Of a stretch of DNA of 64,000 nucleotides, positions 14,686-62,737 are shown piece by piece. This DNA is from Prorocentrum cordatum. Taxonomy: Eukaryota. Each line of letters opens with the position of its first letter. Within the stretch, counting starts at the first letter, position 1. The position numbers were made by a program, and so were the translations under genes. The notes under the pieces were generated by a model, which made no database searches, had not been told where the DNA came from, and saw only the letters and a program-made list of their open reading frames with translations. The stretch is taken from positions 1 to 64,000 of the forward strand of contig CAUYUJ010000170.1 of NCBI GenBank assembly GCA_963575745.1, in the 5' to 3' direction.

Positions 14686-15948
14686 TCATACCACGACAGC
14701 GGCAACAAGGTCTGGCAAAGCTTTCGAAATGGCCGGCACAATTGCATGATCCGACAAGTACTTGTAGCCTTCGGGAGGACAATGAGGTTTGCAACGCTCG
14801 CAGAGTTTGCCACATTCTTGCATGGTTTTGTGCAAATCGACAACGGTGACATTCCTTTCCGCCATGATCGTGGTCGCAATCTCGTTGAGCTCGAGGACTC
14901 GTTTCTCAGATGGGCTTAGAGCACCAGGCACCGAGCGGCTACCGCCAGGCATGGTCGTCAAGAAATAAAGTACAGTGGCTGGTTGCCTTCGCTGCAGTAA
15001 GGGTACCTTGGCAGCGGCCAGAATCGTGTCTGCAATTTCGCTCAACCCGTTCTGATACGTGATATTGTCGTCTGCGCCATCGTGAAGACCAAAGTTGAAA
15101 GTGATGACATCCCATGCTGGCAAGACATGGCGTGGAGTACGGAGGAAATACTTTGTGCATAGTTGCCCGTATTGAACGCCGTCCGCGTTTCCTCCGCCAG
15201 CGTTATCAGGACCATGCTGCACATTTGCCTTGCCGACCAGAGAAGCCCGCACGTTCATGATGTACCCAGCACTAACGCTGTCTCCAATGATCAAAACATT
15301 TGGCATAGCAGAGCTGATTGTAGATGGTCCTGGCCCACAGCAGCACCCGCCTGAAACTTTACCGACACCTGCACAACCAGGGTAAGATGTTGAGTTCGGA
15401 GGGGCGCAACCATACCCACCAGGCACCTTGTAGGCATCAGGGCTCTTTCCGATGCAGCACGTATCTCCTTCTGGACATTGTGTGCAACCGGACGCACCGC
15501 ATTTCTGCAAAGGTGGTCCTAAAGAAGAAGTGCCCGTGTTGGTCGCATGACGCGATGGACATGCGGCTATCCCGAGCACATGAATCCGATTATTGCTCCC
15601 ACAACGTTCGGTTGCATCACCAGTACATGGTTCTGCACGTGTGCACTGTGGATTCTTATCCTGGGGGATCGTGTAAGGACCAAAGCCGTGGTCGCAATAG
15701 CAATTGCCTCCGTTCTCCAAGCCAGCAAGAGATCCAGCTCCGAACCCAGCTAAGCAACACAAATATATGCAACGCTCTTGACTCATATTATTATCATTGG
15801 AAGCAGCGAGATACTTTAAAACACGTCGTTCTCCATCTGGCGTTTGGTACGGGTCGACGAAGCAGCCAATCGCCGAGGGCGATACACACTGATTGCTACA
15901 ATCGGTAACATGTGGCCACGTTGCAGCTAACATGGAGAGCGCACGCAT
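14686..15948 (-). CDS. Intronless WSC-domain + SGNH/GDSL hydrolase (retrogene)
   Basis: WSC pattern GCFVD..MSQERCIYLC..AGLENGGNCYCD..PCTGDATERCG. SGNH block I LIIGDSV, block III WDVITFNFGLHD, block V PH..EGY. TGA at 14686-14688. Start MRALSML at 15948; alternative ATG at 15999. Confidence 0.85.
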   Translation of the reverse strand: MRALSMLAATWPHVTDCSNQCVSPSAIGCFVDPYQTPDGERRVLKYLAASNDNNMSQERCIYLCCLAGFGAGSLAGLENGGNCYCDHGFGPYTIPQDKNPQCTRAEPCTGDATERCGSNNRIHVLGIAACPSRHATNTGTSSLGPPLQKCGASGCTQCPEGDTCCIGKSPDAYKVPGGYGCAPPNSTSYPGCAGVGKVSGGCCCGPGPSTISSAMPNVLIIGDSVSAGYIMNVRASLVGKANVQHGPDNAGGGNADGVQYGQLCTKYFLRTPRHVLPAWDVITFNFGLHDGADDNITYQNGLSEIADTILAAAKVPLLQRRQPATVLYFLTTMPGGSRSVPGALSPSEKRVLELNEIATTIMAERNVTVVDLHKTMQECGKLCERCKPHCPPEGYKYLSDHAIVPAISKALPDLVAAVVV

Positions 15949-15975
15949 CTTCCAGGAAGATGTTCTCCAAGTGGC

Positions 15976-16000
15976 CTTGAGCCAACTGGTTTGAGTCATG
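15976..16000 (-). other. Relict SL remnants (ATGACTCAAA-CCAGTTGGCTCAAG)
   Basis: TTGGCTCAAG is an exact SL 3' end at 15976-15985, preceded by a degenerate second copy. Confidence 0.6.
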
Positions 16001-16094
16001 ATGATGTTCTCCGTCAGATTTCGCCCTTCTGCTAGGGTGCGGCCAAGAACCCTTGGTTTTCCGCAAAAGCTTCCTACGAGGCGTGCAACACTGT

Positions 16095-16116
16095 CTTGAG
16101 CCAAAATGGCTACGGA
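16095..16116 (-). other. Full 22-nt dinoflagellate spliced leader (TCCGTAGCCATTTTGGCTCAAG) integrated at the retrogene 5' end
   Basis: Exact reverse-complement match cttgagccaaaatggctacgga. Confidence 0.97.
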
Positions 16117-16954
16117 CCATGGTTTCAGCGCCCTTGGCCGCGGCAAGTTCCCCGACACCGCGTGAACCGCGCAGCCTTTGGGCGATCTTAGCGCTCGGAG
16201 TTTCCTAGGGATTCGGATCTATTGTCGGACGAATCTCGCGATGTGGAAAGCGTCTAGAAACATCGATGTGCATTGCTTTGGAAAGGCTGTCGGGAACATG
16301 GACATCGAGGTTCCCGGAAGGCACTCTAGGAACATGGTCTAGGACGTGGACGCGATGGCTTCGAGAGGCTCTGGACCCTCGGGTCGGCTAAACGCAAGAG
16401 GATCCCGGGCAAGGGTGGCCTCCAGTGTGCGGCTTCAGTGGGCTCCCCCAGCCCCACCAAAGCGGCACGCGTGCTCGAATCTGGCCCGCCTGCGCCCGCC
16501 TGAAGCCGCGCACCAGAGGTCACTCCAGCGAAGGATCACTCTTACGCGTGCGGTCGATCGATCAGGGGCGTCTTAGGGCTACTCGACGGCGTCTCGGGGG
16601 CTAGGGGGCCTCGTGAGGGCTGGCTGGCGGTCTCGGGCTTTTTCGAACCTCTGTTGAGGCTCTCCAGGTGGCTTCTTGGGCGTTTTGGGCGGCCTCCTGG
16701 ACCGTCTTCGGGCCCTCTTGGGCGTTCTGGGGGTCCTCTGGAGGGACTCGTGAGCTGCTTTCGAGCGATGTCGAAGGCCTCTTAGGCCGTCTGCGGCCAT
16801 CGGGCATCGGCCAAACCGCGTGTCGTCGAAAGGCTCTCGGGGCTTCCTCGACGCCATTGTTGCTGCCCTTGGTCCACTTTCTGGACTGGTGACCTGTCTG
16901 TGGGGCTCTCCTCCTCCTTCTCCTCCTCCTCCTCCTCCTCCTGTCTCCCTACCT

Positions 16955-22057: not shown

Positions 22058-22469
22058 CTGCGGGCGCGCGCGCGGCACGGGGGCGCCGAAGAGACGGCTG
22101 CTCAGGACAGCTCCTCCTCCTCCTCCTCCTCCTCCTACTCCTCCTCCTCCTCCTCCTCCTCCTCCTCCTCCTCCTCCTCCTCCTCCTCCTCCTCCTCCCT
22201 CCACATCATCCTCCCCCTCCTGCTCCTGCTCCTGCTCCTGCTCCTCCTCCTCCCCTCCTCCTTCTCCTCCTCCTCCTCCTTCTCCTCCTTCCCCCCCTCC
22301 TCCTCCTCTTCCTCCTCCTCCTCCTTCTCCTCCTCCTCTCCTCCTCCTCCTCCTCCGCCTCCTCCTCCACCCCTTATCCTTATAGGTAACTCCTCCCTGT
22401 CGGAACCCGAGGCCGGTCAAAAGGGCGGACTGGGCGTTTCGATTGAGACGCCCTCACAATCCATGGTCC

Positions 22470-29679: not shown

Positions 29680-31010
29680 AACGCATCGGCAAGTGTCACT
29701 GGCGCGTCCCTTTCAGCTCCACATGCGGCTACGAAGCGCGCGCGGGGTGCGCCACAATGCGTGTGTGTGTGTGTGTGGTCTGTGTGTGTTGGTGTGTGTG
29801 TGTGTGCGTGCGTGCGCGTGTCTGTGTGTGTGTGTTGGTGTGTGTGGTGTGTATAAGTGTGGTGCTGGTGGTGGTGGGTGGTGGTGGTGGTGGTGGTGGC
29901 GATGGTGGTGGTGGTGGTGGTGGTATGTGCGTGTGTGTGCGCGTGTGTGTGCGTGCGTGTGTGTGTGTGTGTGTGTTGATGCTGGTGGTCGCGGTGGGTG
30001 GGCGGGCGGAGTGAATGGGAGGGTGTGGGGGGAGGGGGCGGGAAGGGGGGGGGGCATGCTAACGTCGTCACTTGGGCCTTAGATGGGGCTCCTCATGGGC
30101 CACGAGCCGTCTGAGGGGCGCGTCGTAACGGGCGACGCGGGCGCGCGTAAACGTCGCCGTCGGGGCTTCAAGCGAGGCCCCCCGTGGGGCCACGGGACGC
30201 GTTAGCGGTGCGCCGTGATGCGTGGCGCGGGCGCACGCAGAGGTCGCCAGTGGAGCTATAGGCGGAGCTCCCTACGCGGCCACGAACCGCGTGAGCGGTG
30301 TGCCCTTCTTGGGGGCGCGGGCGCGTGCATACGTCGGCGCTGGGGCCTTACGTGGGCCTCCCTATGGGGCCGCGGACCGTGCGAAGTGTGCGCCGTAATG
30401 AATGGCGCGGGCGCATGTGCACGTCGCCATTGGGGCCTTCGGCGGCGCTCGCTTTGGGGCCATGAACACTGTGACAGGCGCGCCGTCATGGGCGGCGCAA
30501 GCGCATGCAAACATCGCCGGTGGTGCCGTACAGGGAGCTCGCTGCGTGGCCACGAACGGCGCGCGGGTGCGCTGTCATGGGCTGCGCGGGCGCATGTAAA
30601 CGCCGCCGCTGAGGCCTTCGGTGGAGCACCCTATGGAGCGTTGGCGCATGTAACATCGCCACTGCGGTCTTGGGTGGAGCTCCCCATGACGGCACGAAAC
30701 GTTTGAGGGGCGCGCCGTTGCGGGCGGCGCGGACGCATGTGGACGTCGCCACTGGGTGGATTTGGCGGAGCCCCCCATGGGGCTGCGGACCGCGCGAGGG
30801 GCGCGTCGCCATGGGTGGCGCCGACGTATGTCAACGTCGCCGCGGGGGCTTTACGTGGGGATCCGTACGGGGCCATGAAGCGCGTGATGGGTGCGCCGTA
30901 ATGGGCGGCGCGGACGCATGCAGACGTCGCCACTGGGAACTCGCATGCAATTCCCTACGCGGCCACGAAGCGCGTGGAGGGGTGCGCCGACATTGACGCA
31001 CGGAGCGCAG
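29680..31010 (+). repeat. (GT)n/(GGT)n tract followed by degenerate ~90-bp tandem repeat (ggggccacgaaccgcg..aatgggcggcgcggacgcatg)
   Basis: Same family recurs at 45280-46260. Confidence 0.8.
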
Positions 31011-31909
31011 GACAGGGGCGGGATGATTGGGGGGAGGGGGAGGGCGGGAAGTAAGGTGACGCGTGGCGCCGTCGCTTCAGACCGAGGGCCCCGACGCAGA
31101 ATTGCTTTGGGAACTGATGCAGTGGGGGTTGCAGAGGGCATGGCAGAAGTGCACAAACCTGTTGGAACAAGGGACGGGGTTGGGCAGACGCACTGCGGCC
31201 CTGGGCTCGCGCGATCGCGACGTAGGCCTTGTGGGCCGACAAGCAACCCGACGCTTCCCAGGCAGCGGGGCAACGCTGTGGGATGCTGCGCCGCGGCGCG
31301 TCAACGATGTCTTCCAGCATGGCAATTGCAATCAGAGCCCGTCGGCGAAGAATGGCGAAAGTAGAGCGGGAGGAGCGTCCGATCGGAATATGGATTGCAT
31401 TGGCAGGGCAAAACCAAACTAGAACCCCCCCCGCCTCCTTCCCCCTCCCGCATGTGCCCCCCCCCCCTTCCCGTTCGCAACGCCCCGCCCGCCGCTGCCC
31501 CGCTCCCCCCCGGCGGCCCACCGCCGCTTTCCCGCGCGCTGCCAAGCCCGCGCGCCATCAGGCCCTGTCGGCCGCAAGCCAAGCTCAACCATCTCCCTTA
31601 TCGCCCCCTGCCGCTCGCCCACGGCGCCCGCCGGTATCCGCGGCGCGCCTTGCAATCGCTCGCTGCCCGCCTCTGCGCTTCCACGTCGGGCATGCTCGGG
31701 GTCGGCCATCGGGCGGCGTCACCGCCCCGAAAGGCCCCGCGCCCTCGACCAATCACCCCGGCGCAACATGCGCAACCGCTTGCCCGCCGCAGCCGCCCGC
31801 TCGCCCGCCTGGGAGGGGGGGGGGCACGGGGTGCCAAGGCGCACACGCCTGATGTGCCGCCAAGGTTCGCACCGAAATATAATACGGAAAGGCCCGCTCC
31901 GCAATCGGC

Positions 31910-32236
31910 GGAGGGGAGGGGGGGGGGAAGTAGGGGGGGGAAACGATCGCGAAGGGGCGGGGGGGGGGAGGGGGGCGTCGTTAAATCGAAAAGCCGGGGG
32001 GGGGGGGGGGGGGAATCTGAAGGACGGGGGCGGGAAAGGGGGGGGCTCTGCAAAAACTGGAAGGACGGGAAAGGGGGGGGGGAAAGGGGGGCGGGCGGGG
32101 GGGGGCTTTTTGCAAAAATAAGAAGGACGGCGAGGGGGGGGCGATGGGGGGGGGGATTTTGCACATATTGGAGACGGCGGGGATTTCGCAAAAATCTACA
32201 GGACGGGGGCGAGCGGGGACTTTGCGCAAATCGGAC
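31910..32236. repeat. G-run-rich ~31-bp repeat (gggggctttgcaaaaatcggaaggacg), resuming at 37498-37800
   Basis: The same repeat flanks both sides of the 32239-37495 insertion. Confidence 0.8.
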
Positions 32237-32497
32237 TACAGGCAGAGTCCATTGCACAGGACACGCGACAGGACACAAGACTCTTCCGACGGCAACATGA
32301 CCTCCCAGAACCACAGGACACAAGGGCACCCTCTCGGGGCCGCGACCGCGGTCACCCGCGGCCGACCCGCGCCCCCGCGACGGGGGGCCAACGTCGGACA
32401 GGACACCAAGGGTGTCCGACAGGCCGCGCCGCCCACCGCGCAGAAAAGTAAATCATGATGCGCCGCGCGCGCCCACCTCCCTCTGGGGGCGGTCACG

Positions 32498-32940
32498 CGA
32501 CCTGTCGCCATGGCAGAAGACCAGAGAACATGGGCGCGGACGCGGACGGCGCAAACGAGAGGACGCGCAGACCACCCTCCCGCGGGAGAGCGACCTGTCG
32601 CAATGGCAGAAGACCAGAGAACATGGGCGCGGACGCGGACGGCGCAAACGAGAGGACGCGCAGACCACCCTCCCGCGGGAAAGCGACCTCTCGCCATGGC
32701 AGAAGACCAGAGAACATGGGCGCGGACGCGGACGGCGCAAACGAGAGGACGCGCAGACCACCCTCCCGCGGGAGAGCGACCTGCCTCCATGGCAGGAGAC
32801 CAGAGAACATGGGCGCGGACGCGGACGGCGCAAACGAGAGGACGCGCAGACCACCATTCCGCGGGAGAGCGACCTGTCGCCATGGCAGAAGACCAGAGAG
32901 AATTGGCGCGGACGCGGACGGAACAAACGAGAGGACGCGC
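32498..32940 (+). repeat. 93-bp tandem repeat x5 in element copy 1
   Basis: cgacct starts at 32498, 32591, 32684, 32777 and 32870. Confidence 0.95.
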
Positions 32941-35900
32941 GTGGGGACTTCTGTATTGCTCACAATAGAAAAGTCGACATTTCCGTCGGCCTCCTTAAAG
33001 GCCCACAGAAATTTCAAATTCAGTTTTTGCAATTACATGGCAGTTTCTTTATTGTGGACAATACAGAACTCCTCACGCGCGCGCGCGTGGGGACTTCTGT
33101 ATTGTTCGCAATAGCAAAGTCGACATTTCCGTCGGCCTCTTTAAAGGGCCACAGAAATTTCAATCTTAGTTTTTCGAATTACATGGCGGCTTTTCTATTG
33201 TGGACAATACCGAACTCCTCGCGCGCGCGCGTGGGGACTTCTATATTGTTCACAATAGAAAAGTTGACATTTCCGCCGGCCTCCTTGATGGCCCACAGAA
33301 GTTTCAAATTCAGTTTCTGGAATTACATGGCGGCTTCTCTATTGTGGACAATACAGAACTCCTCACGCGCGCGCGCGTGCGGGGACTTCTGCATTGTTCG
33401 CAGTAGAAAAGTCGGCATTTCCGTCGGCCTCCTTACCCACAGAAATTTCAAATTCAGTTTTTGCAATTACATGGTGGCTTCTTTATTGTGGACAATACAG
33501 AACTCCTCACGCGCGCGCGCGCGCTCGCACGCGCGCGCGGACGCGCGCGCGTCCGCGCGCGCAGGCGCGTGCGGACTTTCTGTATTGTCCACAATAGAAA
33601 AATCGACAGTTCCGTCGGCCTCCCTAAAGGGCCACAGCAATTTAAAATTCAGTTTTTGGAATTACATGGCGGCTTTTCTATTGTGGACAATACAGAACTC
33701 CTCACGCGCGCGCGCTGACGCGCGCGCGCTGACGGGGGAATTCTGTATGGTTGACAATAGAAAAGTCGAGATTGTCGTCTGCCTCCTTAAGGCGCCACAG
33801 AAATTTCAAATTCAGTTTTTGGAATAAAATGGCGGCTTCTCTATTGTGCACAATACAGAATTCCTCACGCGCGCGCGCGGACGCGCGCGCGTCCGCGCGC
33901 GCGCGCGTGGGGACTTCTGTATTGTCCACAATAGAAATGTCGACATTTCCGTCGGCCTCCTTACAAGCCCACAGAAATTTCAAATTCAGTTTTTACAATT
34001 ACAAAATGGTTTCTCTGTTGTGGGCAATACAGAACTCCTCACGCGCCCGCGCGCGCGGGGACTTCTGTATTGTCCACAATAGAAAAGACGACATTTCCGT
34101 CGGCCTTCTCAAAAGGCAACAGAAACTTCAAATTCAGTTTTTCGAATTACATGGCGGCTTTTCTATTGTTAACAGTACAGAACTCCTCACACGCGCGCGC
34201 GCGTGGGGACTTCTGTATTGTCCAGAATAGAAAAGTCCACGTTTCCGTCGGCCTCCTTAACGGGCCACAGAAATTTCAAATTCAGCTTCTTTTTGGAATT
34301 ACAAGTTTGCTTTTCTATTGTGGACAATACAGAACTCCACGCGCGCGCGTGCGCGTGGACGCGCGCGCGTCCGCGCGCGCGCGTGGGGACTTCTGCATTG
34401 TCCGCAATACAAAAATCGACATGTCCGTCGGCCTCATCAAAGAGCCACAGAAATTTCAAATTCAGATGTTGGAAATACATGGCGGCTTTTCTACTAGGGA
34501 CTATACAGAACTCCTCACGCGCGCGCGCGCATGGGGAGTGCTGTATTGTTCACAATCGAAAAATCTACATTTTCAAATTCAGTTTTTGGAATTACATGGC
34601 GGCTTCTCTATTGTGGACAATACAGAAGTCCTCACGCGCGCGCGGGGACTTCTGTATGGTTCACAAAAGAAAAGTCGACATGTCCGACGACCTCCTTAAA
34701 GGGCCACAGAACTTTCAATTTCAGTTTTTGGAAATACATGGCGGCTTTCCTACTGTGGACAATACAGAACTCCTCACGCGCGCGCGCGGACTTCTGTATT
34801 ATTCACAATAGAAAAGTCGGCATTTCCGTCGGCCCCCTTAAAGGCCCACAGAAAATTCTCAAATTCAATGTTTGGAATTACATGGCGGCTTCTCTATTGT
34901 GGACAATACAGAACTCCTCACGCGCGCGCGGTGACTTCCGCATGGTTCACAATAGAAAAGTCGGCATGTCCGTCGGCCTCCTTAAATGGCCACAGAAATC
35001 TCAAATTCAGTTTTTGGAATTACATGGCGGCTTTTCTATTGTGTACAATACAGAACTCCTCACGCGCGCGCGCGTGGGGACTTCTGTATTGTCCACAATA
35101 GAAAAATCGACATTTCCGTCGGCCTCCTTAAAGGCCCACAGGAATTTCAAATTCAGTTTTTGGAATTACATGGCGGCTTCTCTATTGTTGACGATACAGA
35201 ACTCCTCACGCGCGCGCGCGCGCTGACGCGCGCGCTGACGCGCGCGCGCGCGTGGGGACTTCTGTAGTGTTCAGAATAGAGAAGTCGAAATTTTCGTTGG
35301 CATCTTGAAAAGACCACAGAAATTTCACATTCAGTTTTTGGAATTAAGTGGCGGCTTTTCTATTGTGCACAATACAGAACTCCTCACGCGCGCGCGCGCG
35401 CGTGGGGACTTCTGTACTGTCCACAATAGAAAAATCGACATTTCCGTTGGCCTCCTTAAAGGGCCACGGAAATTTCAAATACAGTTTTTGGAATTACAAG
35501 TTTGCTTTTCTATTGTGGACAATACAGAAGAACTCCTCACGCTCGCGCGCGCGGACGCGCGCGCGTCCGCCCGCGCCCGCGCGCGCGGGGACTTCTGCAT
35601 TGTCCACAATAGAAAAGTCGACATTTCCGTCGGCCTCCTTAGAGGGCCACAAAAATTTCACATTCAGTGTTTGGAATTGCATGGCGGCTTTTCTGTTGGA
35701 CAATACAGAACTCCTCACGCGCGCGCGCACGCGCGCGCGTTGGGACTTCTGTAGTGTCCACAATAAAGAAATCGACATTTCCGTCGGCCTCCTTAACGGG
35801 CAACAGAAATTTCAAATTCAGTTTTTGGAATTACATGGCTGCTTTTCTATTGTGGACAATACAGAGCTTCTCACGCGCGCGCGCGTGCGGACTTTCTGTA

Positions 35901-36885
35901 TTGTTCACAAAAGAAAAGTCGACATTTCCGTCGGCCTCCTTGCAGGGCCACACAAATTTCAAATTCAGCGTTTGGAATTGCATGGCGGCTTTTCCATTGG
36001 ACAATACAGAACTCCTCACGCGCGCGCGCGCGGACGCGCGCGCGTCCGCGCGCGCTTGCGCTTGGGGACTTCGGTATTATTCACAATTGAGAAGTCTACA
36101 TTCCCGTCGGCCTCCTTAAAAGCCCCAAGAAATTTCAAATTCAGTTTTGGAAATGACATGGCGGCTTTTCTATTGCGGACAATACAGAACTCCTCACGCG
36201 CGCGCGCGCGGACGCGCGCGCGTCCGCGCGCGCGCGCGTGGGGGCGCATGCATTGTTCACAATAGAAAAGTCGGCATTTCCGTCGGCCCCCTTAAGGGCC
36301 ACAGAAATTTCAAGTTCAGTTTTTGGATTTACATGGCGGCTTTTTTATTGCCGACAATGCAGAACTCCTCACGCGCGCGCGCGCGCGTGGGGATTGCTGT
36401 ATTGTCCACAAAAGAAAAATCTACATTTCCGTCGGCCTCATTAGAAGGGCCACAGAAATTTCAAATTCAGTTTTTGGAATTACATGGCGGCTTTTCTATT
36501 GTTGACAATACAGAACTCCTCACGCGCGCGCGCGCGTGGGGACCTCTGTATTGTCTACAATAGACAAGTCGACATTTCCCTCGGCCTCCTTAAAGGGCCA
36601 CAGAAAATTCAAACTCAGTTTTTTGGAATTACATGGCGGCTTTTCTATTGTGGACAATACAAAACTCCTCACGCGCGCGCGCGCGGACGCGCGCGCGTCC
36701 GCACGCGCCCGCGCGCGTGGGGACTTCTGTATTGTCCACCATGGAAAGTCGGCGCGTCCGTCGGCCTTCTTAAAGGGCCACAGAAATTTCAAATTCAGTT
36801 TTTGGAATTACATGGCAGCTTTTCTGTTGTGGACCATACAGAACTCCTCGCGCGCGCGCCAGCGCGCGTCCGCGCGCGCGCGCGC
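32941..36885. repeat. ~25 palindromic ~145-bp units with (CG)n linkers, array 1
   Basis: gtggggacttctgtattgtccacaatagaaaagtcg ... cggcttttctattgtggacaatacagaactcctcac (36-bp inverted arms). Confidence 0.95.
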
Positions 36886-37849
36886 TCTAGTTTGCAAGCC
36901 AACACGGCGTCTTTTCTATTCGGAACAATACAGAGCGCTCTATGAGGCTCAGGCTGAGCGCCCGCGTGACTCCGCCAAAAGCGCGCCTCCACTGCTGTTC
37001 CCAGGAGCCCGCCGAAGTGAAGCCAATGCGCAGGACGGCAGGGTGCCCTTTGCGCGCCCCGCGACCTGCCCGAACGCGACGATGAACGAACTTGCAGGGC
37101 TGGGCAAGTACCGGACACAGGAGTACCCTGCTGCGCGGGGGCGACCTCGAGAGAACGCGTCGTTGGTTCACTGGCGGCGCGGCCGCGCTCAGAGGACATC
37201 GCAGAGCATGCCCTTCGCCGCGGCGCCGGCGGCGCGGCGCTAAAACCACAATCTTACATCGAAGCGAACCGAACCCCCAGATGTGCCAGGACACAAGGGT
37301 ACCCGTGACCAGGGCCGCGACCTCCCCGAGGCGCGACGCGCCCAGAACGCCGCGGGCCAAGCCGCCGACGCCCGCGGAAAGCACAGGACACAAGGGTTCC
37401 CTTGCCCGGGGAATGCAGAGGACACGAAGCGCGATGCACAGGACACGAGAGCACCCTTGATTTGGCAGGCCCGACCTGCTAATGGACTCCGACGGCACGG
37501 GGGGGGGGACTTTGCAAAGATCGGGAGTCACAAATCGGAATAAGGGGGTGGGGGGGCTTTGCAGAAATCGGAAGGACGGGGGAGGAGGGGCTTTGCAAAA
37601 ATCGGAAGGACGGGGGGGAAGGGGGGTGGGGGGCTTTTGCAAAAATCAGAAGGACGGGGGCGGGGGGCGAGGGGGACCTTGCACAAATCGGCATGGGGAG
37701 GTGGGGTGAGGACTTTCGCAGAAATCGGGAGGACGGGGGAAGGGGGGTGGCCTTTGCGAACAAAACAAAAGGAGGGGGTGCTTTGCAAAATATTGGGCGC
37801 GTTCGAATCGCAATTCGTAGAAACAGCTTGCTAGACGACTTGCTTGTTT

Positions 37850-38830
37850 GCTTGGCGTAGCAGAATTTTGCTAGAAATTTGCTTAAATTTTGCTTCGCGT
37901 AGCAAAATTTTGCTAGAAATTTGCTTAAATTTTGCTTCGCGTAGCAAAATTTTGCTAGAAATTTGCTTAAATGTTGCTTGGCGCTGCCACCCCCGTCCCC
38001 CCGCGCAACTAAGATGCGACCGCCATCGCTGTGAACGAGTAAGATGTGGAAGGGGCGAAGCAAAATTTTGCTAGAAATTTGCTTAAATTTTGCTTCGCGT
38101 AGCAAAATTTTGCTAGAAATTTGCTTAAAATTTGCTTGGCGCTGCCACACTTCCCCCCCCCCCAAGTGAAACGCAAAGTGTTGCGACGCCCCTTCCACTA
38201 CGTTTTCCGTGCGCAGTGATGGCGGTAGTGGTCATATAGGACCACGACCGCAGTCGATGTGAGCGGGTAAGATGTGGAAGGCGCGAAACAGAATTTTGCT
38301 AGAAATTTGCTTAAATTTTGCTTCGCGTAGCAAAATTTTGCTAGAAATTTGCTTAAATTTTGCTTCGCGTAGCAAAATTTTGCTAGAAATTTGCTTAAAA
38401 TTTGCTTTGCGCTGCCCAAGTAATATCCAAGCATTTGTTGTTGCTACGCCCCTTCCACTAGCTATCCGTTCGCATCGATGGCGGTAGTGGCCACATAAGA
38501 CCACGACCGCCATCGATGCTTGGCGCAGCCGACCAAGCAAAATGTGCTTCGAAGTTTGCTTAGTGGGCCGCGCCAAGCAAAATTCAAGCAAAATTTTGCT
38601 TGCCAAGCAAAATTCAAGCAAAATTTTGCTTGCCAAGCAAAATTCAAGCAAAATTTTGCTTGCCAAGCAAAATTCAAGCAAAATTGTGCTTGCAAAGTAA
38701 AATTCAAGCAAATTTTCAAAATTCTACTATCGGAAAGCATTTTTTCAGAAAAATGCTTCCCCAAGTAAAATTCAAGCAAAATTAAAGCAAAATTCAAGCA
38801 AATTTAAGCAAAATTTTGCTTGAATTCGTT
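37850..38830. repeat. AT-rich 42-bp and 30-bp palindromic tandem repeats (gcaaaattttgc core)
   Basis: 42-bp period (37901, 37943); 30-bp unit gccaagcaaaattcaagcaaaattttgctt at ~38572-38700. Confidence 0.92.
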
Positions 38831-40202
38831 CCGTCGTACGCCGTCGTGCACCGTCGTGCGCCGTCGTGCGCCGTCGCGCGCGGTCGCGCGGCGTCGAGGC
38901 GCGCCATGCGCTGCGGCGCGCTTCGTCGTCATCTGGCGGCGCTGATGGCTGCGGCGGCGCATGCGGCGCGGGCGCCCGACCAGCCCCCCCCCCCCCCCTC
39001 CCCCCTCGCCAACCGCTGGCGGGATGCACGCGGCAGGCGCGCGGCCCGAGGTGCTCGGGCGACGTAGGTGGACAGAACGCTCATGACGACGCCCCTGCGA
39101 TACTCTCCGCCGCGACGCACCTTGCTCGCTCGCATCTTCGATTGAGGAACGCCGCCCCCCCTGCGAAACTTTGGCGGGCGGGCCCAGCGCCCCAGCCGCA
39201 GCGCAACGCTCGCGCAGCCGCGATGCGCTGCCCTGTGCCACCGAGCGCTCCACTGTCGCATTCTCGGGTGGACGCCACCTGTCGGCGCACGGGCGACCTA
39301 ACCCCCCCGCCCCCCCCCCCCCCCTCGAAGACATGGGCAAATGCGCCAAAAACGCATTCGGACACGGCGCCCCTCGTTGCCGGTGGCCGAGTGCCGCTTA
39401 ACGCTGAACGCCACCAGCGGCCCCGACGGACAGAGCCTCCCCCCTCTTTTTCCCCCGCCACGAGTAGGATACCGCCGCAAGTGCCAGGCGGCGCGGCCGC
39501 GGAATGCCTGGGCACACGGGGCGCCCCGTTCTGCGGGCGCGCGCGCGATGCCCCAACATGGGCCAGGGCGTGCGCGAAGAGGCCAAGGGCTGCCCTCCCA
39601 GAGGGTGGCCCAACACTGGAGATCGCACGCGCACGGCCAGGATGGCAGAGGCGCGTGCTCGAGGGCACCCGTGGGATCGCAAAACGTGGGCGAGTGGAAC
39701 TCAGATACCTGCACCTCATACTGCATGCGCCCACAGATCATCCCACGTTGGCACGGCGCGCTATCTCGTGACCTATGACTCCCCATCCTTTGCCCCCGAC
39801 TCTGCCTTGCTCTGCCGTACTCAATTCTCCTCCTGCCCGCCCATATTAGACGGGCGGGGGACGGGTTGGGGGAGGGGCGGAGGGGGGGGGGGGCGGGAGA
39901 GGGGGAGGGGAAGAGGAAAGGCGCGGGGCTGGAGTTTGACGTACAGGCAGAGTCCATTGCCCAGGACACGCGACAGGACACAATACTCTTCCGGCGGCAA
40001 CATGACCTCCCAGAACCACAGGACACAAGGGTACCCTCTCGGGGCCGCGACCGCGGTCACCCGCGGCCGACCCGCGCCCCCGCGACGGGGGGCCAACGTC
40101 GGACAGGGCACCAGGGGTGTCCGACAGGCCGCGCCGCCCACCGCGCAGAAAAGTAAATCATGATGCGCCGCAAGCGCCCACCTCCCTCTGGGGGCGGTCG
40201 CG

Positions 40203-40642
40203 CGACCTGTCGCCATGGCAGAAGACCAGAACATGGGCGCGGACGCGGACGGCGCAAACGAGAGGACGCGCAGACCACCCTCTCGCGGGAGAGCGACCTG
40301 TCGCCATGGCAGAAGACCAGAGAACATGGGCGCGGACGCGGACGGCGCAAACGAGAGGACGCGCAGACCACCCTCCCGCGGGAGAGCGACCTGTCGCCAT
40401 GGCAGAAGACCAGAGAACATGGGCGCGGACGCGGACGGCGCAAACGAGAGGACGCGCAGACCACCCTTCCGCGGGAGAGCGACCTGTCTCCATGGCAGGA
40501 GACCAGAGAACATGGGCGCGGACGCGGACGGCGCAAACGAGAGGACGCGCAGACCACCCTCCGCGGGAGAGCGACCTGTCGCCATGGCAGAAGACCAGAG
40601 AACATGGGCGCGGACGCGGACGGCGCAAACGAGAGGACGCGC
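40203..40642 (+). repeat. 91-93-bp tandem repeat x5 in element copy 2
   Basis: Same unit as 32498-32940. Confidence 0.95.
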
Positions 40643-43600
40643 GTGGGGACTTCTGTATTGTTCACGATAGAAAAGTCGACATTTCCGTCGGCCTCTTTAA
40701 AGGCCCACAGAAATTTCAAATTCAGTTTTTGGAATTACATGGCGGCTTCTCTATTGTGGACAATACAGAACTCCTCACGCGCGCGCGCGCGCGCGCGTGG
40801 GGACTTTGTATTGTTCACAATAGACAAGTCGACATTTCCGTCGGCCTCCTTAAAGGGCCACAGAAATTTCAAATTCAGTTTTTGGAATTACATGGCGGCT
40901 TTTCTATTGTGGACAATACAGAACTCACGCGCGCGCGCGTGGGGACTTCTGTATTATTCACAATAGAAAAGTCGGCATTTCCGTCGGCCCCTTTCAAGAC
41001 CCACAGAAATTTCAAATTCAGTTTTTGGAATTACAGGGCGGCTTTTCTATTGTGGACAATACAGAACTCCTCACGCGCGCGCGCGAACGGACGCGCGCGC
41101 GTCCGCGCGCGCGGCGACTTATGTATGGTTCACAATAGAAAAAGTCGACATGCCCGTCGGCCTCCTTAAATTTCAAATTCAGCTTTTGGAATTACATGAA
41201 GGTTTTTTGTATTTGGGACAATACAGAACTCCTCACGCGCGCGCGCGCGGACGCGCGCGCGCGCGGGGATTTCTGTATTGCCCACAATAAAAAAGTCTGC
41301 GTTTCCGTCGGCCTCCTTAAAGGGCCCACAGAAATTTCAAACTCAGTTTTTGGAATTACATGGCGGCTTTTCCATTGTGGACAATACAGAACTCCTCACG
41401 CGCGCGCGCGCGCTGACGCGCGCGCTGACGCGCGCGCGTGGGGACTCTGTATGGTTCACAATAGAGAAGTGGACGTTTTCGTCTGCCTCCTTAAGGGGCA
41501 ACAGAAATTTCAAATTCGGTTTTTAAAATTAAATGGCGGCTTCTCTATCGTGCACAAAAAGGAACTCCTCACGCGCGCGCGCGCGTCCGGCGACTTCTGA
41601 ATTGTCCACAATAGACAAGTCGGCATTTCCATCGGCCTCCTTAAAGGGCCACAGAAATTTCGAATCCAGTTTTTGGAATTACATGGCAACTTTTCTATTG
41701 TGGACAATACAGAACTCCTCACGCGCGCGCGCGCGGACGCGCGCGCGTCCGCGCGCGCCCGCGCGCGGGGGACTTCTGTATTGTCCACAATAGACAAGTC
41801 GACATTTCCGTCGGCCTCCTCAAAGGGCCACAAAAATTTCAAATTCAGTTTTTGGAATTACATGGCTGCTTTTCTATTGTGGACAATACAGAACTTCTCG
41901 CGCGCGCGCGCGTGGGGACTTCTGTATCGTCCACAATAAAATAGTAGACATGTCCGTCGGCCTCCTTAACGGGCCACAGAAATTTCAAATTGAGTTTTTG
42001 GAATTACATGGCGGCTTTTCTATTGTTGACAATACAGAACTCCTCACGCGCGCGCGCGTGGGGACTTCTGTATTGTCCACACTAGAAAAGTCGACATTTC
42101 CGTCGGCCTCCTTAAAGGGCCACAGAAATTTCAAATTCAGCTTTTGGGTTACATGGCGGCTTTTCTATTGTGGACAATACAGAACTCCTCACGCGCGCGC
42201 GCGCGTGGGGCCTTTTGTATTGTCCACAATGGAAAAGTCTATATTTTCGTCGGCCCCCTTAAGGGCCACAGAAATTTCCAACCCAGTTTTTGGAATTACA
42301 TGGCGGCTTCTCTATTGTGGACAATACAGAACTCCTCACGCGCGCGCGCGCGGGGACTTCTGTATGATTCACAATCGAAAAGTCGAGATTTCCGTCGGCC
42401 GCCTTAAAGGGCCACAGAAATTTCAAATTCAGTTTTTGGAATGACATTGCGGCTTTTCTATTGTGGACAATACAGAACTCCTCACGCGCGCGCGCGCGCG
42501 GACGCGCGCGCGTACGCGAACGCGCGGGCGCGCGTGGGGACTTCTGTACTATCTATTCACAATAGAAAAGTCGACATTTCCGCCGGCCTCCTTAACGGGC
42601 CACAGAAATTTCAAATTCAGTTTTTGGAATTACATGGCGGCTTTTCTATTGTGGACAATACAGAACTCCTCACGCGCGCGCGCGGACGCGCGCGCGCGGG
42701 GACTTCTGTATGGTTCACAACACAAAAGTCGACATTTCCGTTGACCTCCTTAAATGGCCACAGAAATTTCAAATTCAGTTTTTGGAATTACATGGCGGCT
42801 TTTTTATTGTGGACAATACAGAAATCCTCGCGCGCGGACGCGCGCGCGGACGCGCGCGCGCGCGTGGGGACTTCTGTATTGGTTCACAATAGAAAAGTAG
42901 ACATTTCCGTCGGCCTCTTTAAAGGGCCACAGAAATTTCAAGTTCAGTTTTTGGAATTACATGGCAACTTTTTTATTCTGGACAATACAGAACTCCTCAC
43001 GCGCGCGCGCGCGCTGACGCGCGCGCTGACGCGCGCGCGCGCGCGCGTGGGGACGTCTGTATTGTTCACAATAAAAGAGTCGACATTTCCGTCGGCCTCC
43101 TTAAAGGGCCACAGAAATTTCAAATTCAGTTTTTGGAATTAAGTGGCGGCTTTTCTATTGTGCACAATACAGCACTCCTCACGCGCGCGTGTGGGCATTT
43201 CTGTATTGTCCACAATAGAAAAGTCAGCTTTTCCGCCGGCCTCCTTAAAGGGCCACAGAAATTTCAAATTCAGTTTTTGGAATTACAAAGTGGCTTTTCT
43301 ATTGTGGACAATACAGAACTCCTCACGCGCGCGCGCGCGACGCGCGCGCGTCCGCGCGCGCCCGCGCGCGCGGGGACTTCTGTAGTGTCCACAATAGACA
43401 AGTCGACATTTCCGTCGGCGACCTTCAGGGCCACAGAAATTTCAAATTCAGTTTTTGGAATTACATGGCGACTTCTCTATTGTGGACAATACACAACTCC
43501 TCGCGCGCGCGCGCGCGGACTGGCGCGCGTCCGCGCACGCGCGCGCGTGGGGACTTCTGTATTGTCCACACTAGAAAAGTCGACATTTCCGTCGGCCTCC

Positions 43601-44605
43601 TTAACGGGCCACAGAAATTTCAAAATCAGTTTTTGGAATTACATGGCGGCTTTTCTGTTGTGGACAACACAGAACTCCTCACGCGCGCGCGCGTGCGGAC
43701 TTCTGTATTGTTCACAACAGAACAATCGACATTTCCGTCGGCCTCCTTAACTGGCCACAAAAATTTCAAAATCAGCTTTTGGAATTACATGGCGGCTTCC
43801 CTATTGTGGACAATACAGAACTCCTCACGCGCGCGCGTGGGGACTTCGGTACTGTTCACAATAGAAAAGTCGACATTTCCGCCGGCCTGCTTAAAGGGCC
43901 ACAGAAATTTCAAATTCAGTTTTTGGAATTACATGGCGGCTTTTCTAATGTGGACAATACAGAACTCCTCACGCGCGCGCGCGCGCGGACGCGCGCGCAT
44001 CGGGACTTCTGTATTGTTCACAATAGAAAAGTTGGCATTTCCGTCGGCCTCCTTAAAAGGCAACGGAAATTCCAAATTCAGCTTTTGGAATTTCAGGGCG
44101 GCTTCTCTATTGTGCAGAAGACAGAACTCCTCACGCGCGCCCGCGCGTGTGGGGACTTCTGTATTGTCCACAATAGAAAATTCGGCATTCCCGTCGGCCT
44201 CAAAGGGCCACAGAAATTTCAAATTCAGTTTTTGAAATTACATGGCGGCTTTTCTATTGTGGACAATACAGAACTCCTCACGCGCGCACGCGCGCGCGTG
44301 GGGACTTCTGTATTGTCCACAATAGAAAAGTCTACATTTCCGTCGGCCTCCTTAAAGGGCAACAGAAATTTCAAATTCAGCTTTTGGACTTACATGGCGG
44401 CTTTTCTATTGTGGACAATACAGAACTCCTCACGCGCGCGCGCGTGGTGACTTCTGTATTGTCCACAATGGAAAGTCGGTGCGTCCGTCGGCCTCCTTAA
44501 AGGGCCACAGAAATTTCAAATTCAGTTTTTGGAATTACATGGTAGCTTTTCTGTTGTGGACCATCCAGAACTCCTCACGCGCGCGCCAGCGCGCGTCCGC
44601 GCGCT
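40643..44605. repeat. ~25 palindromic ~145-bp units with (CG)n linkers, array 2
   Basis: Same unit as 32941-36885. Confidence 0.95.
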
Positions 44606-45279
44606 CTAGCTTGCAAGCCAACACGGCGTCTTCTCTATTCGGAACAATACAGAGCGCTCTATGAGACTTAGGCTGAGCGCCCGCGTGACTCCGCCAAAAG
44701 CGCGCCTCCGCTGCTGTTCCCAGGAGCCCGCCGAAGAGAAGCCAATGCACAGGACGGCAGGGTATCCTTTGCGCGCCCCGCGACCTGCCCGAACGCGACG
44801 ATGAATGAACTTGCAGGGCTGGGCAAGTACAGGACACAGGAGTACCCTGCTGCGCGGGGGCGACCTCGAGTGAACGCGTCGTTGGTTCACTGGCGGTGCG
44901 GCCGCACTCAGAGGACATCGCAGAGTATACCCTTCGCCGCGGCGCCGGCGGCGCGGCGCTGAAACCGCAATCTTACATCGAAGCGAACCGAACCCCCAAA
45001 TCTGAGAGGACACAAGGGTACCCTTGACCAGGGCCGCGACCTCCCCGAGGCGCGACGCGCCCAGAACGCCGCGGGCCAAGCCGCCGACACCCGCGGAAAG
45101 CACAGGACACAAGGGCACCCTTGCCCGGGGAATGCAGAGGACACGAAGCGCGATGCACAGGACACGAGAGTACCCTTGATTTGGCAGGCCCGACCTACTA
45201 ATGGACTCCGACTGTATCTTGGGCATGAGCTCGATCGTGTGCAATGGCGAGGACCGCGATTGTGGACACGCAAATGCGC

Positions 45280-46260
45280 GTGTCACTGGGGCGTTCGGTG
45301 GGGCTCCCTATGGGGCCACGAACCGTGCGATAGATGCGCCGTGATGTGTGTGGTGCGTGGTGCGTGTGTCTGTGGTGCCGGTCGTGTGTGTGTGTGTGTC
45401 GTGTTTGTGTGGTGGTGGTTGACGGTTGGTGGTGGCGGTGGTGGTGTGTGTCGGGGGGGGGGGGGCGTGCGTGGGGGTGGCGGTGGTCGTGGTGGGTTGG
45501 TGGTGGCGGGGGTGGAGCTGGGCGGGGGTCTCTGGGTGGGTGGGCGGGCCATGGGCGGCGCAAGCGCCATGGGCGGCGCAACCGCACGTGCACGTGCCGT
45601 CATAGGCGGCCAAACGCAGTACACGTCGCTTGGAGCTCCATATGGGCCCGCGAATGGCGCGAGCAAAGGTCGCCATTTGGACTTTATGTGGAGCTCCTCA
45701 TGTGGCCACGGGCCGCGTGATGGGGCGTGCCGTAATGGGCGGCACGGACGCTTGTGCGACGCCGCCTCAAGTCGAAACCCCCATGCAGCCACGGACCGTG
45801 CGAGGGGTGCGCCGCAATGGGTTGCGCGCGCGCGTGCGAACTTCGCCACTGGGGCCTTGGGTGGAACTCTTTCTGAGGCGACGGGCCGCGCGATTGAGAG
45901 CGTCGCAATGGTTGGGCAGCCTTTCGTTGAGATCCTTCTGGGGCCACGAACCGCGCGAGGGCGCGCCGCGATGGGTGGCCCAGGAGCGCGCGACCGTCGC
46001 CACGGGTGCTTTAAGTGGAGCACCATGTGGGGCCGCGAACCGCGCGATGGGGCGCGCCGTAATCGGTGGCGCGGACGCATGTCCACGTCGCCACAGGGGG
46101 CTCAGATGGAGCCCCCTATGGGGCCACGGTCCGTGCGAGGGTGCGGCATGATGCGCGGCGCGGACGCATGTAAGCGTCTCTACTGGGGCCTTGGGTGCAA
46201 TTCCATAAGTGGCCATGAACCATGGGAAGGGCGCAGCGTTGTGGCGCGGATGCGGCGCAC
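45280..46260 (+). repeat. Degenerate ~90-bp tandem repeat, second array
   Basis: Same family as 29680-31010. Confidence 0.8.
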
Positions 46261-50339: not shown

Positions 50340-51054
50340 TCATAGCGGTCGTCGATGCCGCCATAATCATCCTTATCATCACCACCATCCACCACCGCCA
50401 CCACCCATCATCATCAGCATCACCACCACCATCATCATCATAATAATCATCATCAGCATCATCGCCATCGTCATTCTCAACATCATCATCGTCATCGTCA
50501 TCCTCATCCTCGTCGTCATCATCAGCATCACCATCATCGGCATCATCGTCACCATCATTATCATCATCATCATCATCTCTACCATCGTCTTTATCGTCAT
50601 CACCATTATCATAACTAGCACCACCACATTTATCAACACCACCACTGCCACCATCACAATCACTGACGTAATCACACTTATCAACGACATCATCGTCATC
50701 ATCATATCATCATCGTCGTCACCATAACTGTCATCATTGTCATCATTGGCATCGTTGTCATCACCATCATCGCTATTATCGTCGTCATCACCGCCATCGT
50801 CAACACCATCGTGATCATCATCACCACAAGCATCACCATGCTGATCATCATCGTCATCATCATTGTCGTCATCATCATCATCATCATCAGCATCATCATT
50901 TTCATCCCTGTCATCATTGTCATCATCACCATCATCATCACCATCGGAACCATAATTACATTCATCCTCACAAACATCATCCTCGTCATCGTCTTCATCG
51001 TCACTACCGTCATCTCAACTACAACCAACCACCACAATTATCACCACCATTGTC

Positions 51055-62716: not shown

Positions 62717-62737
62717 CCGTAGCCATTTTGGCTCAAG
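62717..62737 (+). other. Intact DinoSL (CCGTAGCCATTTTGGCTCAAG)
   Basis: Exact 21-nt match. Confidence 0.97.

What the first reader, a model, noticed from the sequence alone, without database searches (positions are those of the whole stretch)
32941..36885. Continuous double-palindrome array with variable (CG)n linkers
Seen: each unit has 36-bp inverted arms around a ~60-bp core containing two small hairpins (ggcctccttaaagggcc, aattcagtttttggaatt). The linkers are self-complementary (CG)n of ~10-45 bp, so arms can also pair across them. The array therefore has alternating symmetry centres over ~4 kb. Inference: potential for cruciforms and Z-DNA, dense CpG methylation targets, dsRNA/small-RNA production, or repeated protein-binding sites in histone-poor dinoflagellate chromatin.
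Basis: partly seen in the sequence, partly recalled or inferred. Interest (0 to 1): 0.7.

Follow-up and report, generated by a model that had tools for sequence, protein, structure and literature searches.

The report
Palindromic satellite with CG-repeat linkers
This is a real tandem array in a dinoflagellate nuclear genome, built from a 136-base mirror-symmetric unit joined by variable CG-repeat spacers; it looks like a non-coding satellite whose symmetry is inherited rather than selected, though its sequence could readily form unusual DNA shapes.

Summary
Window 32942-36852 holds 25 head-to-tail units of about 136 bp. Each has 34-bp inverted arms around a 66-bp core, and the units are joined by 6-58-bp CG-rich linkers. 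Both arrays lie in a 5.3-kb composite block that is duplicated 7.7 kb apart.

The host is a dinoflagellate: there are two exact 21-nt spliced-leader relics in the window.

The arms show no covariation. A unit's own arms pair no better than arms taken from different units (26.26 versus 26.27 of 34). The arms are no more conserved than the core, and one mismatch is fixed in 49 of 50 units. Rfam gives only sub-threshold generic hairpin matches. All 50 units point the same way, and the repeat period does not keep a reading frame.

My best reading (about 0.6) is a satellite-type repeat amplified from one foldback-like founder unit together with its (CG)n tract. It has since changed by CG slippage, palindromic linker growth and exchange between units. 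Z-DNA and cruciform potential is real at sequence level but untested. No RNA data could be obtained. Interest is moderate.

The parts
32237..32496 (+). Left unique flank of composite block A, rich in the CAGGACAC motif
   Evidence: It aligns to 39942-40201 at 96.5% (251 of 260 positions). The block-level match is 32237-37493 to 39942-45212.
32497..32940 (+). 93-bp tandem repeat, 4.8 copies, running directly into the first unit
   Evidence: Tandem Repeats Finder. It is 97.3% identical to 40202-40643.
32942..36852 (+). Array A: 25 units of about 136 bp with 24 CG-rich linkers. This is the finding.
35075..35108 (+). Left arm of reference unit A15 (34 nt), containing the inner palindrome TATTGTCCACAATA
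   Evidence: Alignment A1 columns 2-40.
35109..35174 (+). Core of reference unit A15 (66 nt), with GTCGAC, GGCC...GGCC and AATTC...GAATT
35175..35208 (+). Right arm of reference unit A15 (34 nt), the inverted copy of the left arm
   Evidence: Alignment A1 columns 115-152.
36199..36238 (.). Example of a long palindromic linker, (CG)6-GGAC-(GC)4-GTCC-(GC)n, 40 bp
   Evidence: linker before A22.
35211..35252 (+). Example of a direct-repeat linker of CGCGCGCGCTGA type, found only before units 6 and 16 in both arrays
   Evidence: Tandem Repeats Finder (35215-35247).
36853..36885 (.). Terminal CG-rich linker of array A
36886..36939 (+). Degenerate half unit (diverged core end plus right arm) closing array A
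   Evidence: Read directly. The same feature follows array B.
36940..37493 (+). Right flank of composite block A
   Evidence: 36886-37493 aligns to 44605-45212 at 95.4%.
39942..40643 (+). Left flank and 93-bp repeat array of composite block B
40644..44579 (+). Array B: 25 paralogous units with 24 linkers
44580..45212 (+). Terminal linker, half unit and right flank of block B

Best explanation
This is a non-coding, satellite-type tandem repeat of a dinoflagellate nuclear genome. A single founder unit already had 34-bp inverted arms, either as a foldback or MITE-like element or as a local inverted duplication. It was amplified head-to-tail together with an adjoining (CG)n tract, by unequal exchange or replication slippage rather than by repeated insertion. 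The finished array, with a 93-bp repeat in front and unique flanks, was later copied as a 5.3-kb block. Since then the (CG)n linkers have changed length by slippage. Some became GGAC/GTCC palindromes, plausibly by fold-back or template-switch synthesis on the self-complementary CG tract. Unit variants have been reshuffled among units. The mirror symmetry is inherited from the founder and is decaying neutrally. It is not maintained by selection for base pairing. The potential for Z-DNA and cruciforms is a physical by-product and may add to the instability of the array. Shown here: the anatomy, the duplication, the lack of covariation, the uniform orientation and the linker variability. Inferred: the founder's nature, the amplification mechanism and neutrality.
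For: - All 50 units (25 + 25) have the core on the same strand, with 0 minus-strand anchors. Independent insertions of a symmetric-ended element would land in both orientations.
- There is no covariation. Pairing is 86.8% observed against 86.9 +/- 0.2% shuffled. Own arms give 26.26 of 34 Watson-Crick pairs, neighbouring arms across a linker 26.23, and any other arm pair 26.27.
- The C-C mismatch at columns 8/146 is kept in 49 of 50 units, and a G-T pair at columns 4/150 in 46 of 50. The imperfections were therefore inherited and never corrected.
- The arms are no more conserved than the core: 0.897 and 0.938 against 0.915.
- Repeat periods of 142-195 bp do not hold a reading frame.
- No Rfam family reaches its threshold. 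The best match scores 68.9 bits against a gathering score of 245.
- Linker classes match between the arrays at positions 6, 16, 18, 19, 20 and 23 and at the end, while lengths differ by CG steps, for example 42 versus 46 bp before unit 16.
- Block flanks are 95.4-97.3% identical and the terminal units 95%.
- The array edges carry a diverged half unit, as satellites typically do.
- Substitutions run from AT towards GC in a 43% GC unit inside a window of mostly 50-70% GC. This fits drift towards the genome's composition.
- Satellites derived from transposable elements are documented elsewhere (PMC4079207, abstract read; PMC9659126 and PMC12628747, search listing only).
Against: - No dispersed solo copy with target-site duplications could be looked for. 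No genome is held, and four collection scans (two of metagenome contigs, one of viral contigs, one of genome contigs) found nothing. The transposon origin is therefore unproven.
- Interior units at the same position in the two arrays are only 88% identical, while the flanks are 95-97% identical. Simple neutral decay does not explain this. It needs extra exchange or hypermutation, or else homogenisation of the flanks.
- Four-gamete conflicts affect 425 of 1128 site pairs and show no decline with distance. This fits recurrent mutation or very short conversion patches, and I cannot tell which.
- Uniform conservation along the unit is also what uniform constraint would give.
- Absence of covariation argues against selection on intra-unit pairing. 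It does not argue against a role that depends on each arm's sequence, such as a protein site, or on the CG tracts.
Confidence: 0.6

Rival explanations
1. The array is a selected chromosomal structural or topological element. The (CG)n tracts would flip to Z-DNA and the junction palindromes extrude cruciforms under the high supercoiling of dinoflagellate chromosomes, absorbing torsion. Alternatively, the four TATTGT/ACAATA half-sites per unit would bind an architectural protein or a topoisomerase.
For: - Eighty-eight of the window's 105 (CG)>=4 tracts lie in the two arrays.
- Forty-six of 48 junctions have at least 12 bp of alternating purine/pyrimidine, and junction-centred hairpins average -35.5 kcal/mol.
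- Each arm carries its own 14-bp palindrome, TATTGT-SS-ACAATA.
- Z-DNA was immunolocalised to limited chromosome areas in a dinoflagellate (PMC2116181, abstract).
- The layout of alternately oriented palindromic units with two kinds of spacer resembles bacterial BIMEs, which bind several proteins (PMC2817692, abstract).
Against: - There is no structural, chromatin or binding data.
- The arms are not better conserved than the core.
- Linker length and type are highly unstable between the two paralogous arrays. That is unexpected for a tuned element.
- The fixed arm mismatches lie next to the linker, just where a cruciform stem would have to grow.
Confidence: 0.17
2. The array is a hairpin-RNA or small-RNA locus. 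Transcription through it would give long fold-back RNAs that are processed to small RNAs.
For: An RNA copy would fold strongly, with arms paired at 86.8% counting G-U. Generic long-hairpin microRNA models of Rfam match weakly across units.
Against: - All Rfam matches fall far below their gathering scores (68.9 against 245).
- RNAalifold gives no consensus structure.
- There is no covariation in the arms or in the small hairpins.
- No promoter or transcript evidence is available.
Confidence: 0.07
3. The array is a cluster of independent insertions of a MITE that targets (CG)n tracts.
For: The unit has MITE-like size and 34-bp terminal inverted repeats, and every unit is flanked by CG repeats. 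Inverted-repeat mobile elements exist in dinoflagellates (PMC7789003, passages read).
Against: All 50 units share one orientation. The spacing is regular. No solo copy lies elsewhere in the 64-kb window. The linker-class pattern is shared by both arrays, so the array existed as a whole before the block duplication.
Confidence: 0.03
4. The array is an assembly artefact or a mis-assembled repeat.
For: Palindromic, CG-rich repeats are hard to assemble. Short-read contigs show strand-switch and skip joints inside the array (table 5).
Against: Contigs from three runs under different organism or sample codes match unit-specific stretches of 96-169 bp with 0 differences. Examples are 33191-33331 in X1, 34363-34531 in X2 and 34421-34529 in X3 (table 8). 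Two diverged arrays have matching ends and 25 units each.
Confidence: 0.03

Closest known systems
Satellite DNAs derived from foldback or MITE-type transposons, for example Tetris/TIR-220 of Drosophila virilis (PMC4079207, abstract read)
   Same: Kilobase-size head-to-tail arrays of a monomer of one to two hundred bp, linked to inverted-repeat elements. They are non-coding and evolve by unequal exchange.
   Different: Here the whole monomer is one small palindromic element. A parent transposon, target-site duplications and dispersed copies are not shown. Units are separated by hypervariable (CG)n or palindromic linkers. The host is a dinoflagellate.
Satellites with dyad symmetries predicted to form non-B DNA, including centromeric ones (PMC5889037, abstract read; PMC13081366, start of abstract)
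   Same: A tandem repeat with built-in dyad symmetry and predicted hairpin or cruciform potential.
   Different: The dyads described there are mostly under 10 bp. Here the arms are 34 bp with nested 14-bp palindromes and self-complementary linkers. No centromere assignment is possible, and the arrays are only about 4 kb.
Bacterial BIMEs, clusters of REP palindromic units (PMC2817692 and PMC3333891, abstracts or starts of abstracts)
   Same: Regularly spaced palindromic units in alternating orientation, separated by two alternating kinds of spacer.
   Different: BIMEs are bacterial, with shorter units and few copies per cluster, and they are tied to RAYT transposases. This is an architectural analogy only, not homology.
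(CG)n Z-DNA-forming tracts (flipons). Z-DNA was seen in dinoflagellate chromosomes (PMC2116181, abstract)
   Same: Alternating CG runs of 12-25 bp at 46 of 48 junctions.
   Different: In-vivo Z formation at this locus is untested. The tracts are embedded as linkers of a satellite, and many carry GGAC/GTCC breaks.
Inverted-repeat (hairpin RNA / microRNA-like) loci
   Same: Long near-perfect fold-back potential per unit and across linkers.
   Different: No Rfam membership, no covariation and no expression data.

Membership tests
Satellite / tandem-repeat DNA | Head-to-tail copies of one monomer, all in one orientation | tested here: met
   There are 25 + 25 units, all on the + strand, with 0 minus-strand anchors.
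Satellite / tandem-repeat DNA | Non-coding | tested here: met
   Successive periods (146, 144, 144, 195, 163, 174, 148 ...) do not keep a reading frame. Array ORFs themselves were not scanned against Pfam.
Satellite / tandem-repeat DNA | Many copies or arrays genome-wide | tested here: inconclusive
   Contigs laid on 5.3 kb number 2738 (X1), 1286 (X2), 232 (X3) and 1391 (X18), and many are only 90-95% alike. This hints at further copies. Depth is not a copy number, and no genome is held.
MITE / foldback transposon | Terminal inverted repeats on a small element with no transposase | tested here: met
   The arms are 34 bp and the unit is 136 bp.
MITE / foldback transposon | Target-site duplications flanking each copy | tested here: inconclusive
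   Every unit is flanked by CG repeats, which would hide or mimic a target-site duplication.
MITE / foldback transposon | Dispersed copies at unrelated sites, in both orientations | tested here: not met
   Within the 64-kb window there are no copies outside the two arrays, and all copies share one orientation. A genome-wide test is not possible with these tools.
Structured RNA / microRNA-type hairpin precursor | Match to a curated family at its gathering score | tested here: not met
   The best match is MIR2646 at 68.9 bits against 245. All 43 matches are below threshold.
Structured RNA / microRNA-type hairpin precursor | Compensatory changes that keep the stem | tested here: not met
   435 of 500 shuffles pair at least as well; no consensus structure.
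Structured RNA / microRNA-type hairpin precursor | Transcription and processing | not testable with these tools
   No listed run is on record as RNA.
Z-DNA-forming tract | Alternating purine-pyrimidine, ideally (CG)n of about 12 bp or more | tested here: met
   Of 48 junctions, 46 reach at least 12 bp and 35 reach at least 16 bp.
Z-DNA-forming tract | B-to-Z transition in supercoiled DNA or in vivo | not testable with these tools
   This needs 2D gels, Z-alpha or antibody binding, or chemical probing.
Cruciform-prone palindrome | Long near-perfect inverted repeat with little or no spacer | tested here: met
   The junction-centred palindrome is right arm + self-complementary linker + left arm. 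Own-arm Watson-Crick pairing ranges from 20 to 31 of 34 per unit (mean 26.26); across linkers the mean is 26.23 of 34. Mean folding energy is -35.5 kcal/mol. The unit-centred version has a 66-nt spacer and is a poor cruciform candidate.
BIME-like palindromic-unit cluster | Palindromic units in alternating orientation with alternating spacers | tested here: met
   This holds for the architecture only. Membership is not claimed, since that family is bacterial.

The most novel reading that the evidence does not exclude
These arrays may be sequence-defined non-B-DNA elements of dinoflagellate liquid-crystalline chromosomes. In this reading they are regularly spaced Z-DNA-forming (CG)n flipons set between cruciform-capable palindromes, acting as torsion sinks or as docking arrays for HU-like proteins or topoisomerase II. 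They could correspond to the discrete Z-DNA spots seen by immunolabelling, or mark a chromosome landmark such as a loop anchor, an origin or a still-unknown centromere.
Probability: 0.1. Interest if true: 0.85.

Novelty: new variant of a known kind. Interest (0 to 1): 0.4.

Why it matters
Dinoflagellate chromosomes lack nucleosomal packing, are highly supercoiled, and were reported decades ago to contain discrete Z-DNA regions. No DNA sequence has been tied to those regions, and centromeric or architectural sequences are unknown in the group. This array is a concrete, clonable candidate. It has 24 strong Z-formers per 4 kb, interleaved with long palindromes, so the old cytological observation becomes testable at sequence level.

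If the array proves to be only a neutral satellite, it is still useful. It offers a clean case of a palindromic monomer whose symmetry persists without compensatory evolution. It also shows self-complementary microsatellite linkers growing into larger palindromes. Finally, it warns against reading hairpin potential in repeats as evidence of RNA or structural function.

Tried and rejected
- Whole-genome search of the window's own assembly: no genome is held.
- Exact-pattern scans of public collections: JGI metagenome contigs twice, viral contigs and prokaryote genome contigs. All returned 0 loci.
- Earlier findings of this scan, by place, by sequence and by words: nothing on this genome or this repeat. 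The dinoflagellate hits concern plastid minicircles and viruses and are unrelated.
- Sequencing runs: no RNA holder is listed. X18 is only guessed to be RNA, so nothing can be said about expression.
- Laying contigs: many skip and opposite-strand joints occur inside the array. Two X18 joints skip about 5155 bp (32283 to 37439, and 32293 to 37453), but with only 24-30 letters on the shorter side and the between-sequence unknown. I treat these as graph-assembly effects at inverted or CAGGACAC-type repeats, not as evidence of an empty site or of splicing.
- Rfam: 43 sub-threshold matches to generic long-hairpin families, rejected as membership.
- RNAalifold: no consensus structure.
- Pfam on 213 stop-to-stop ORFs chosen from the 259 of at least 110 aa that do not lie wholly inside 32300-45200, plus six ORFs in or overlapping the spacer between the arrays. 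The only hits are a sub-threshold GDSL-lipase-like match (14689-16218, minus strand), a sub-threshold Gaa1-like match (50382-51014, minus strand) and low-complexity noise. No transposase was found. Forty-six of the 109 ORFs in the second half of the list were not scanned.
- A coding reading of the array was rejected because the period does not preserve a frame.
- CpG-decay signature of methylation: not seen. Rates are 0.078 versus 0.074 per base inside units, and CpG observed/expected is 0.91 outside the arrays.
- Concerted evolution within arrays: not seen. Mean identity is 0.827 within A, 0.863 within B and 0.846 between them.
- Literature: five searches listed no paper that, by title or abstract, describes a nuclear palindromic or (CG)n-linked tandem array in dinoflagellates. 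The listed papers were not read for this point. The library lacks most subscription journals and the supplementary repeat libraries of genome papers, so such an element could be catalogued there unseen.
- (a fuzzy-regex scan) timed out and was replaced by a plain mismatch scan.
Full report
WHAT IS THERE

Tandem Repeats Finder reports overlapping arrays with periods of 142-188 bp from 32936 to 36859. A 41-base core anchor, allowing up to 10 mismatches, hits 23 times in 33004-36779, 25 times in 40706-44506, and never on the minus strand. With blastn I delimited 25 units in 32942-36852 (array A) and 25 in 40644-44579 (array B). Unit A11 has an internal deletion of about 31 bp.

The 50 units align over 154 columns at a mean column identity of 81%.

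Each unit has three parts:
- a 34-nt left arm;
- a 66-nt core, with GTCGAC, GGCC...GGCC and AATTC...GAATT;
- a 34-nt right arm that is the inverted copy of the left arm.

Each arm also contains its own 14-bp palindrome, TATTGT-SS-ACAATA.

LINKERS

Over the 48 junctions, linkers are 6-58 bp long with a median of 14. They fall into three classes:
- pure or nearly pure (CG)3-9, of which 19 of 48 are perfectly self-complementary;
- palindromes of about 40 bp of the form (CG)n-GGAC-(GC)4-GTCC-(GC)n, plus half forms carrying GGAC only;
- direct repeats of CGCGCGCGCTGA, found only before units 6 and 16 in both arrays and not self-complementary.

The arrays hold 88 of the window's 105 (CG)>=4 tracts.

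IS IT MORE THAN CHANCE?

Yes. The arms pair in 86.8% of 1692 cells, against 41.7-53.5% when partners are slid by 1-3 columns. A unit with its linkers folds as single-stranded DNA at -47.9 kcal/mol, z = -8.3, and none of 200 shuffles did as well. Hairpins centred on a linker (right arm + linker + next left arm) average -35.5 kcal/mol. Unit-centred hairpins average -24.7 kcal/mol. The alternating symmetry centres are real, and the linker-centred palindromes, which have no spacer, are the better cruciform candidates.

CONTEXT

Each array is preceded by 4.8 copies of a 93-bp repeat (32497-32940 and 40202-40642). Each is closed by a CG-rich linker and a diverged half unit.

The whole block 32237-37493 matches 39942-45212 in register, at 84.3% over 5490 columns with an offset of 7705. 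Identities between the two blocks are:
- unique flanks, 96.5% and 95.4%;
- the 93-bp arrays, 97.3%;
- the first and last units, 95%.

The surrounding DNA is a mosaic of other tandem-repeat families. Among the stop-to-stop ORFs of at least 110 aa that I scanned, none between about 16.2 and 50.4 kb has a Pfam match.

The organism is a dinoflagellate. The complete 21-nt spliced-leader sequence sits at 62718-62738(+) and 16095-16115(-), in front of open frames. This is the signature of retroposed genes. The string occurs in dinoflagellate spliced-leader papers (search listing). No genome is held for the window.

DOES ANYTHING MAINTAIN THE STRUCTURE?

No.
- Shuffling right arms among units gives the same pairing: 86.9 +/- 0.2% against 86.8% observed, with 435 of 500 shuffles at least as high. 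Only 4 pairs show any double change, against 5.5 expected.
- In Watson-Crick terms a unit's own arms make 26.26 of 34 pairs. The arms facing each other across a linker make 26.23, and arbitrary arm pairs make 26.27.
- A C-C mismatch at columns 8/146 is kept in 49 of 50 units. A G-T pair at columns 4/150 is kept in 46 of 50. A T/C polymorphism at column 24 faces an invariant-like G.
- RNAalifold returns no consensus structure.
- The small core hairpins and the intra-arm palindromes behave the same way, at 86.3% against 86.1%.
- The arms are not more conserved than the core: 0.897 and 0.938 against 0.915.
- Rfam gives only sub-threshold matches to generic long-hairpin microRNA models, the best at 68.9 bits against a gathering score of 245.

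The second half, RNA, chromatin or structural signal, could not be tested.

HOW THE ARRAY AROSE AND EVOLVES

All 50 cores point the same way. The array therefore grew by tandem amplification of one unit plus its CG tract, not by repeated insertion of a symmetric-ended element.

The two arrays descend from one 25-unit array. Three observations support this:
- The rare CTGA-type linkers sit before units 6 and 16 in both arrays.
- Other linker classes agree at positions 18, 19, 20 and 23 and at the end.
- A06-B06 and A25-B25 each share 7 derived variants.

Same-position identity in the interior is 0.881, above the 0.865 for other A-B pairs (permutation p < 1e-4).

Two features show rapid change since the duplication. 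First, linkers at the same position often differ in length or even in class, for example 42 versus 46 bp before unit 16, 12 versus 36 bp before unit 4, and 44 versus 10 bp before unit 25. Second, interior units at the same position are only 88% identical, although the flanks are 95-97% identical.

The variants are mostly not private:
- Only 108 of 503 variant cells are singletons.
- Of 109 shared variants, 79 occur in both arrays.
- Of 1128 site pairs, 425 show all four allele combinations, with no decline over distance.

This points to reshuffling by very short conversion or template-switch patches, or to recurrent mutation. There is no concerted evolution within arrays: mean identity is 0.827 within A, 0.863 within B and 0.846 between them. 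CpG sites are not hypermutable.

The palindromic long linkers look like fold-back copies of '(CG)n-GGAC', the first bases of a left-arm variant. Self-priming on a self-complementary CG tract could produce that. This last point is inference.

OTHER DATA

Contigs of four public runs were laid on 32200-37500. Unit-specific stretches are matched with 0 differences in X1, X2 and X3, for example 33191-33331, 34363-34531 and 34421-34529. The unit variants are therefore real and not assembly noise.

Thousands of contigs lie on the 5.3 kb, many at only 90-95% likeness. This hints at further copies of the family elsewhere in the genome, but depth is not a copy number. CG-step indels at linkers are seen, such as +CG after 33893 and -2 at 33076. 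These may come from paralogues. No run is on record as RNA.

COMPARISON WITH WHAT IS KNOWN

The array works like a satellite whose monomer is a foldback-type element. Satellites born from foldback or MITE elements are documented (PMC4079207, abstract; PMC9659126 and PMC12628747, listing only). Inverted-repeat mobile elements exist in dinoflagellates (PMC7789003, passages). Membership in a transposon family is not shown, because target-site duplications, dispersed copies and a parent element are all untested or unmet in the window.

Dyad-symmetric satellites predicted to form non-B DNA are known, notably at centromeres (PMC5889037, abstract). The layout also recalls bacterial BIMEs (PMC2817692, abstract), by analogy only.

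Z-DNA has been immunolocalised to limited areas of dinoflagellate chromosomes (PMC2116181, abstract). These CG tracts are obvious sequence candidates, but nothing here ties them to that signal.

Five literature searches listed no paper that, by title or abstract, describes such a nuclear array in dinoflagellates. The listed papers were not read for this point. Repeat libraries in the supplements of genome papers were not seen.

VERDICT

My best explanation, at about 0.6, is a neutral or selfish palindromic satellite with hypervariable CG linkers. The most novel reading not excluded, at about 0.1, is a non-B-DNA architectural element of dinoflagellate chromosomes. I rate the novelty as a new variant of a known kind and the interest as 0.4.

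Noticed in passing
window 40644-44579: There is a second, paralogous 25-unit array of the same family. It lies inside a 5.3-kb block (39942-45212) that duplicates 32237-37493.
   Followed up: yes
window 32497-32940 and 40202-40642: A 93-bp tandem repeat (4.8 copies, 94-97% matches) runs directly into the first palindromic unit of each array. It contains GCGGACGCGGAC motifs that resemble the long linkers.
   Followed up: partly
window 37847-38815: AT-rich tandem repeats of 42 bp and 30 bp lie between the two blocks. They are built around perfect 16-bp palindromes (TAGCAAAATTTTGCTA and AAGCAAAATTTTGCTT). This is a second palindromic repeat family in the same repeat island.
   Followed up: no
window 31900-32235, 37494-37780, 39860-39930: G-rich 34-44-bp repeats (GGGGG...CTTTGCAAAAATCGGAAGGACGGGG) flank the duplicated blocks. 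A CAGGACACAAGGGTACCC motif recurs in both flanks of each block.
   Followed up: no
window 16095-16115 (-) and 62718-62738 (+): Complete 21-nt dinoflagellate spliced-leader relics sit in front of open frames. One precedes a GDSL-lipase-like ORF (14689-16218, minus strand; Pfam E = 7e-7, below cut-off). These are likely retroposed genes.
   Followed up: partly
window 30210-30937 and 45939-46171: Related GC-rich repeats of about 90 bp, each with a GT-rich tract beside it, lie on the outer side of each block at 64-75% identity.
   Followed up: no
window 50382-51014 (-): A weak Gaa1-like (GPI transamidase) match, E = 3.3e-5 and below the Pfam cut-off. It may be an exon of a minus-strand gene.
   Followed up: no
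window 10-495, 5361-5997, 9285-9632, 10183-10481, 13956-14457, 22111-22368: There are very long trinucleotide tracts: (GAT)n, (CTC)n, (CCT)n, (TGA)n and (GGA)n, with up to about 130 copies.
   Followed up: no
window 32283/37439 and 32293/37453 (run X18): Two contigs join the left and right flanks of block A and skip about 5155 bp. The shorter side has only 24-30 letters and the between-sequence is unknown, so this is unexplained. It could be a repeat-induced graph join or a copy of the flanks without the arrays.
   Followed up: no
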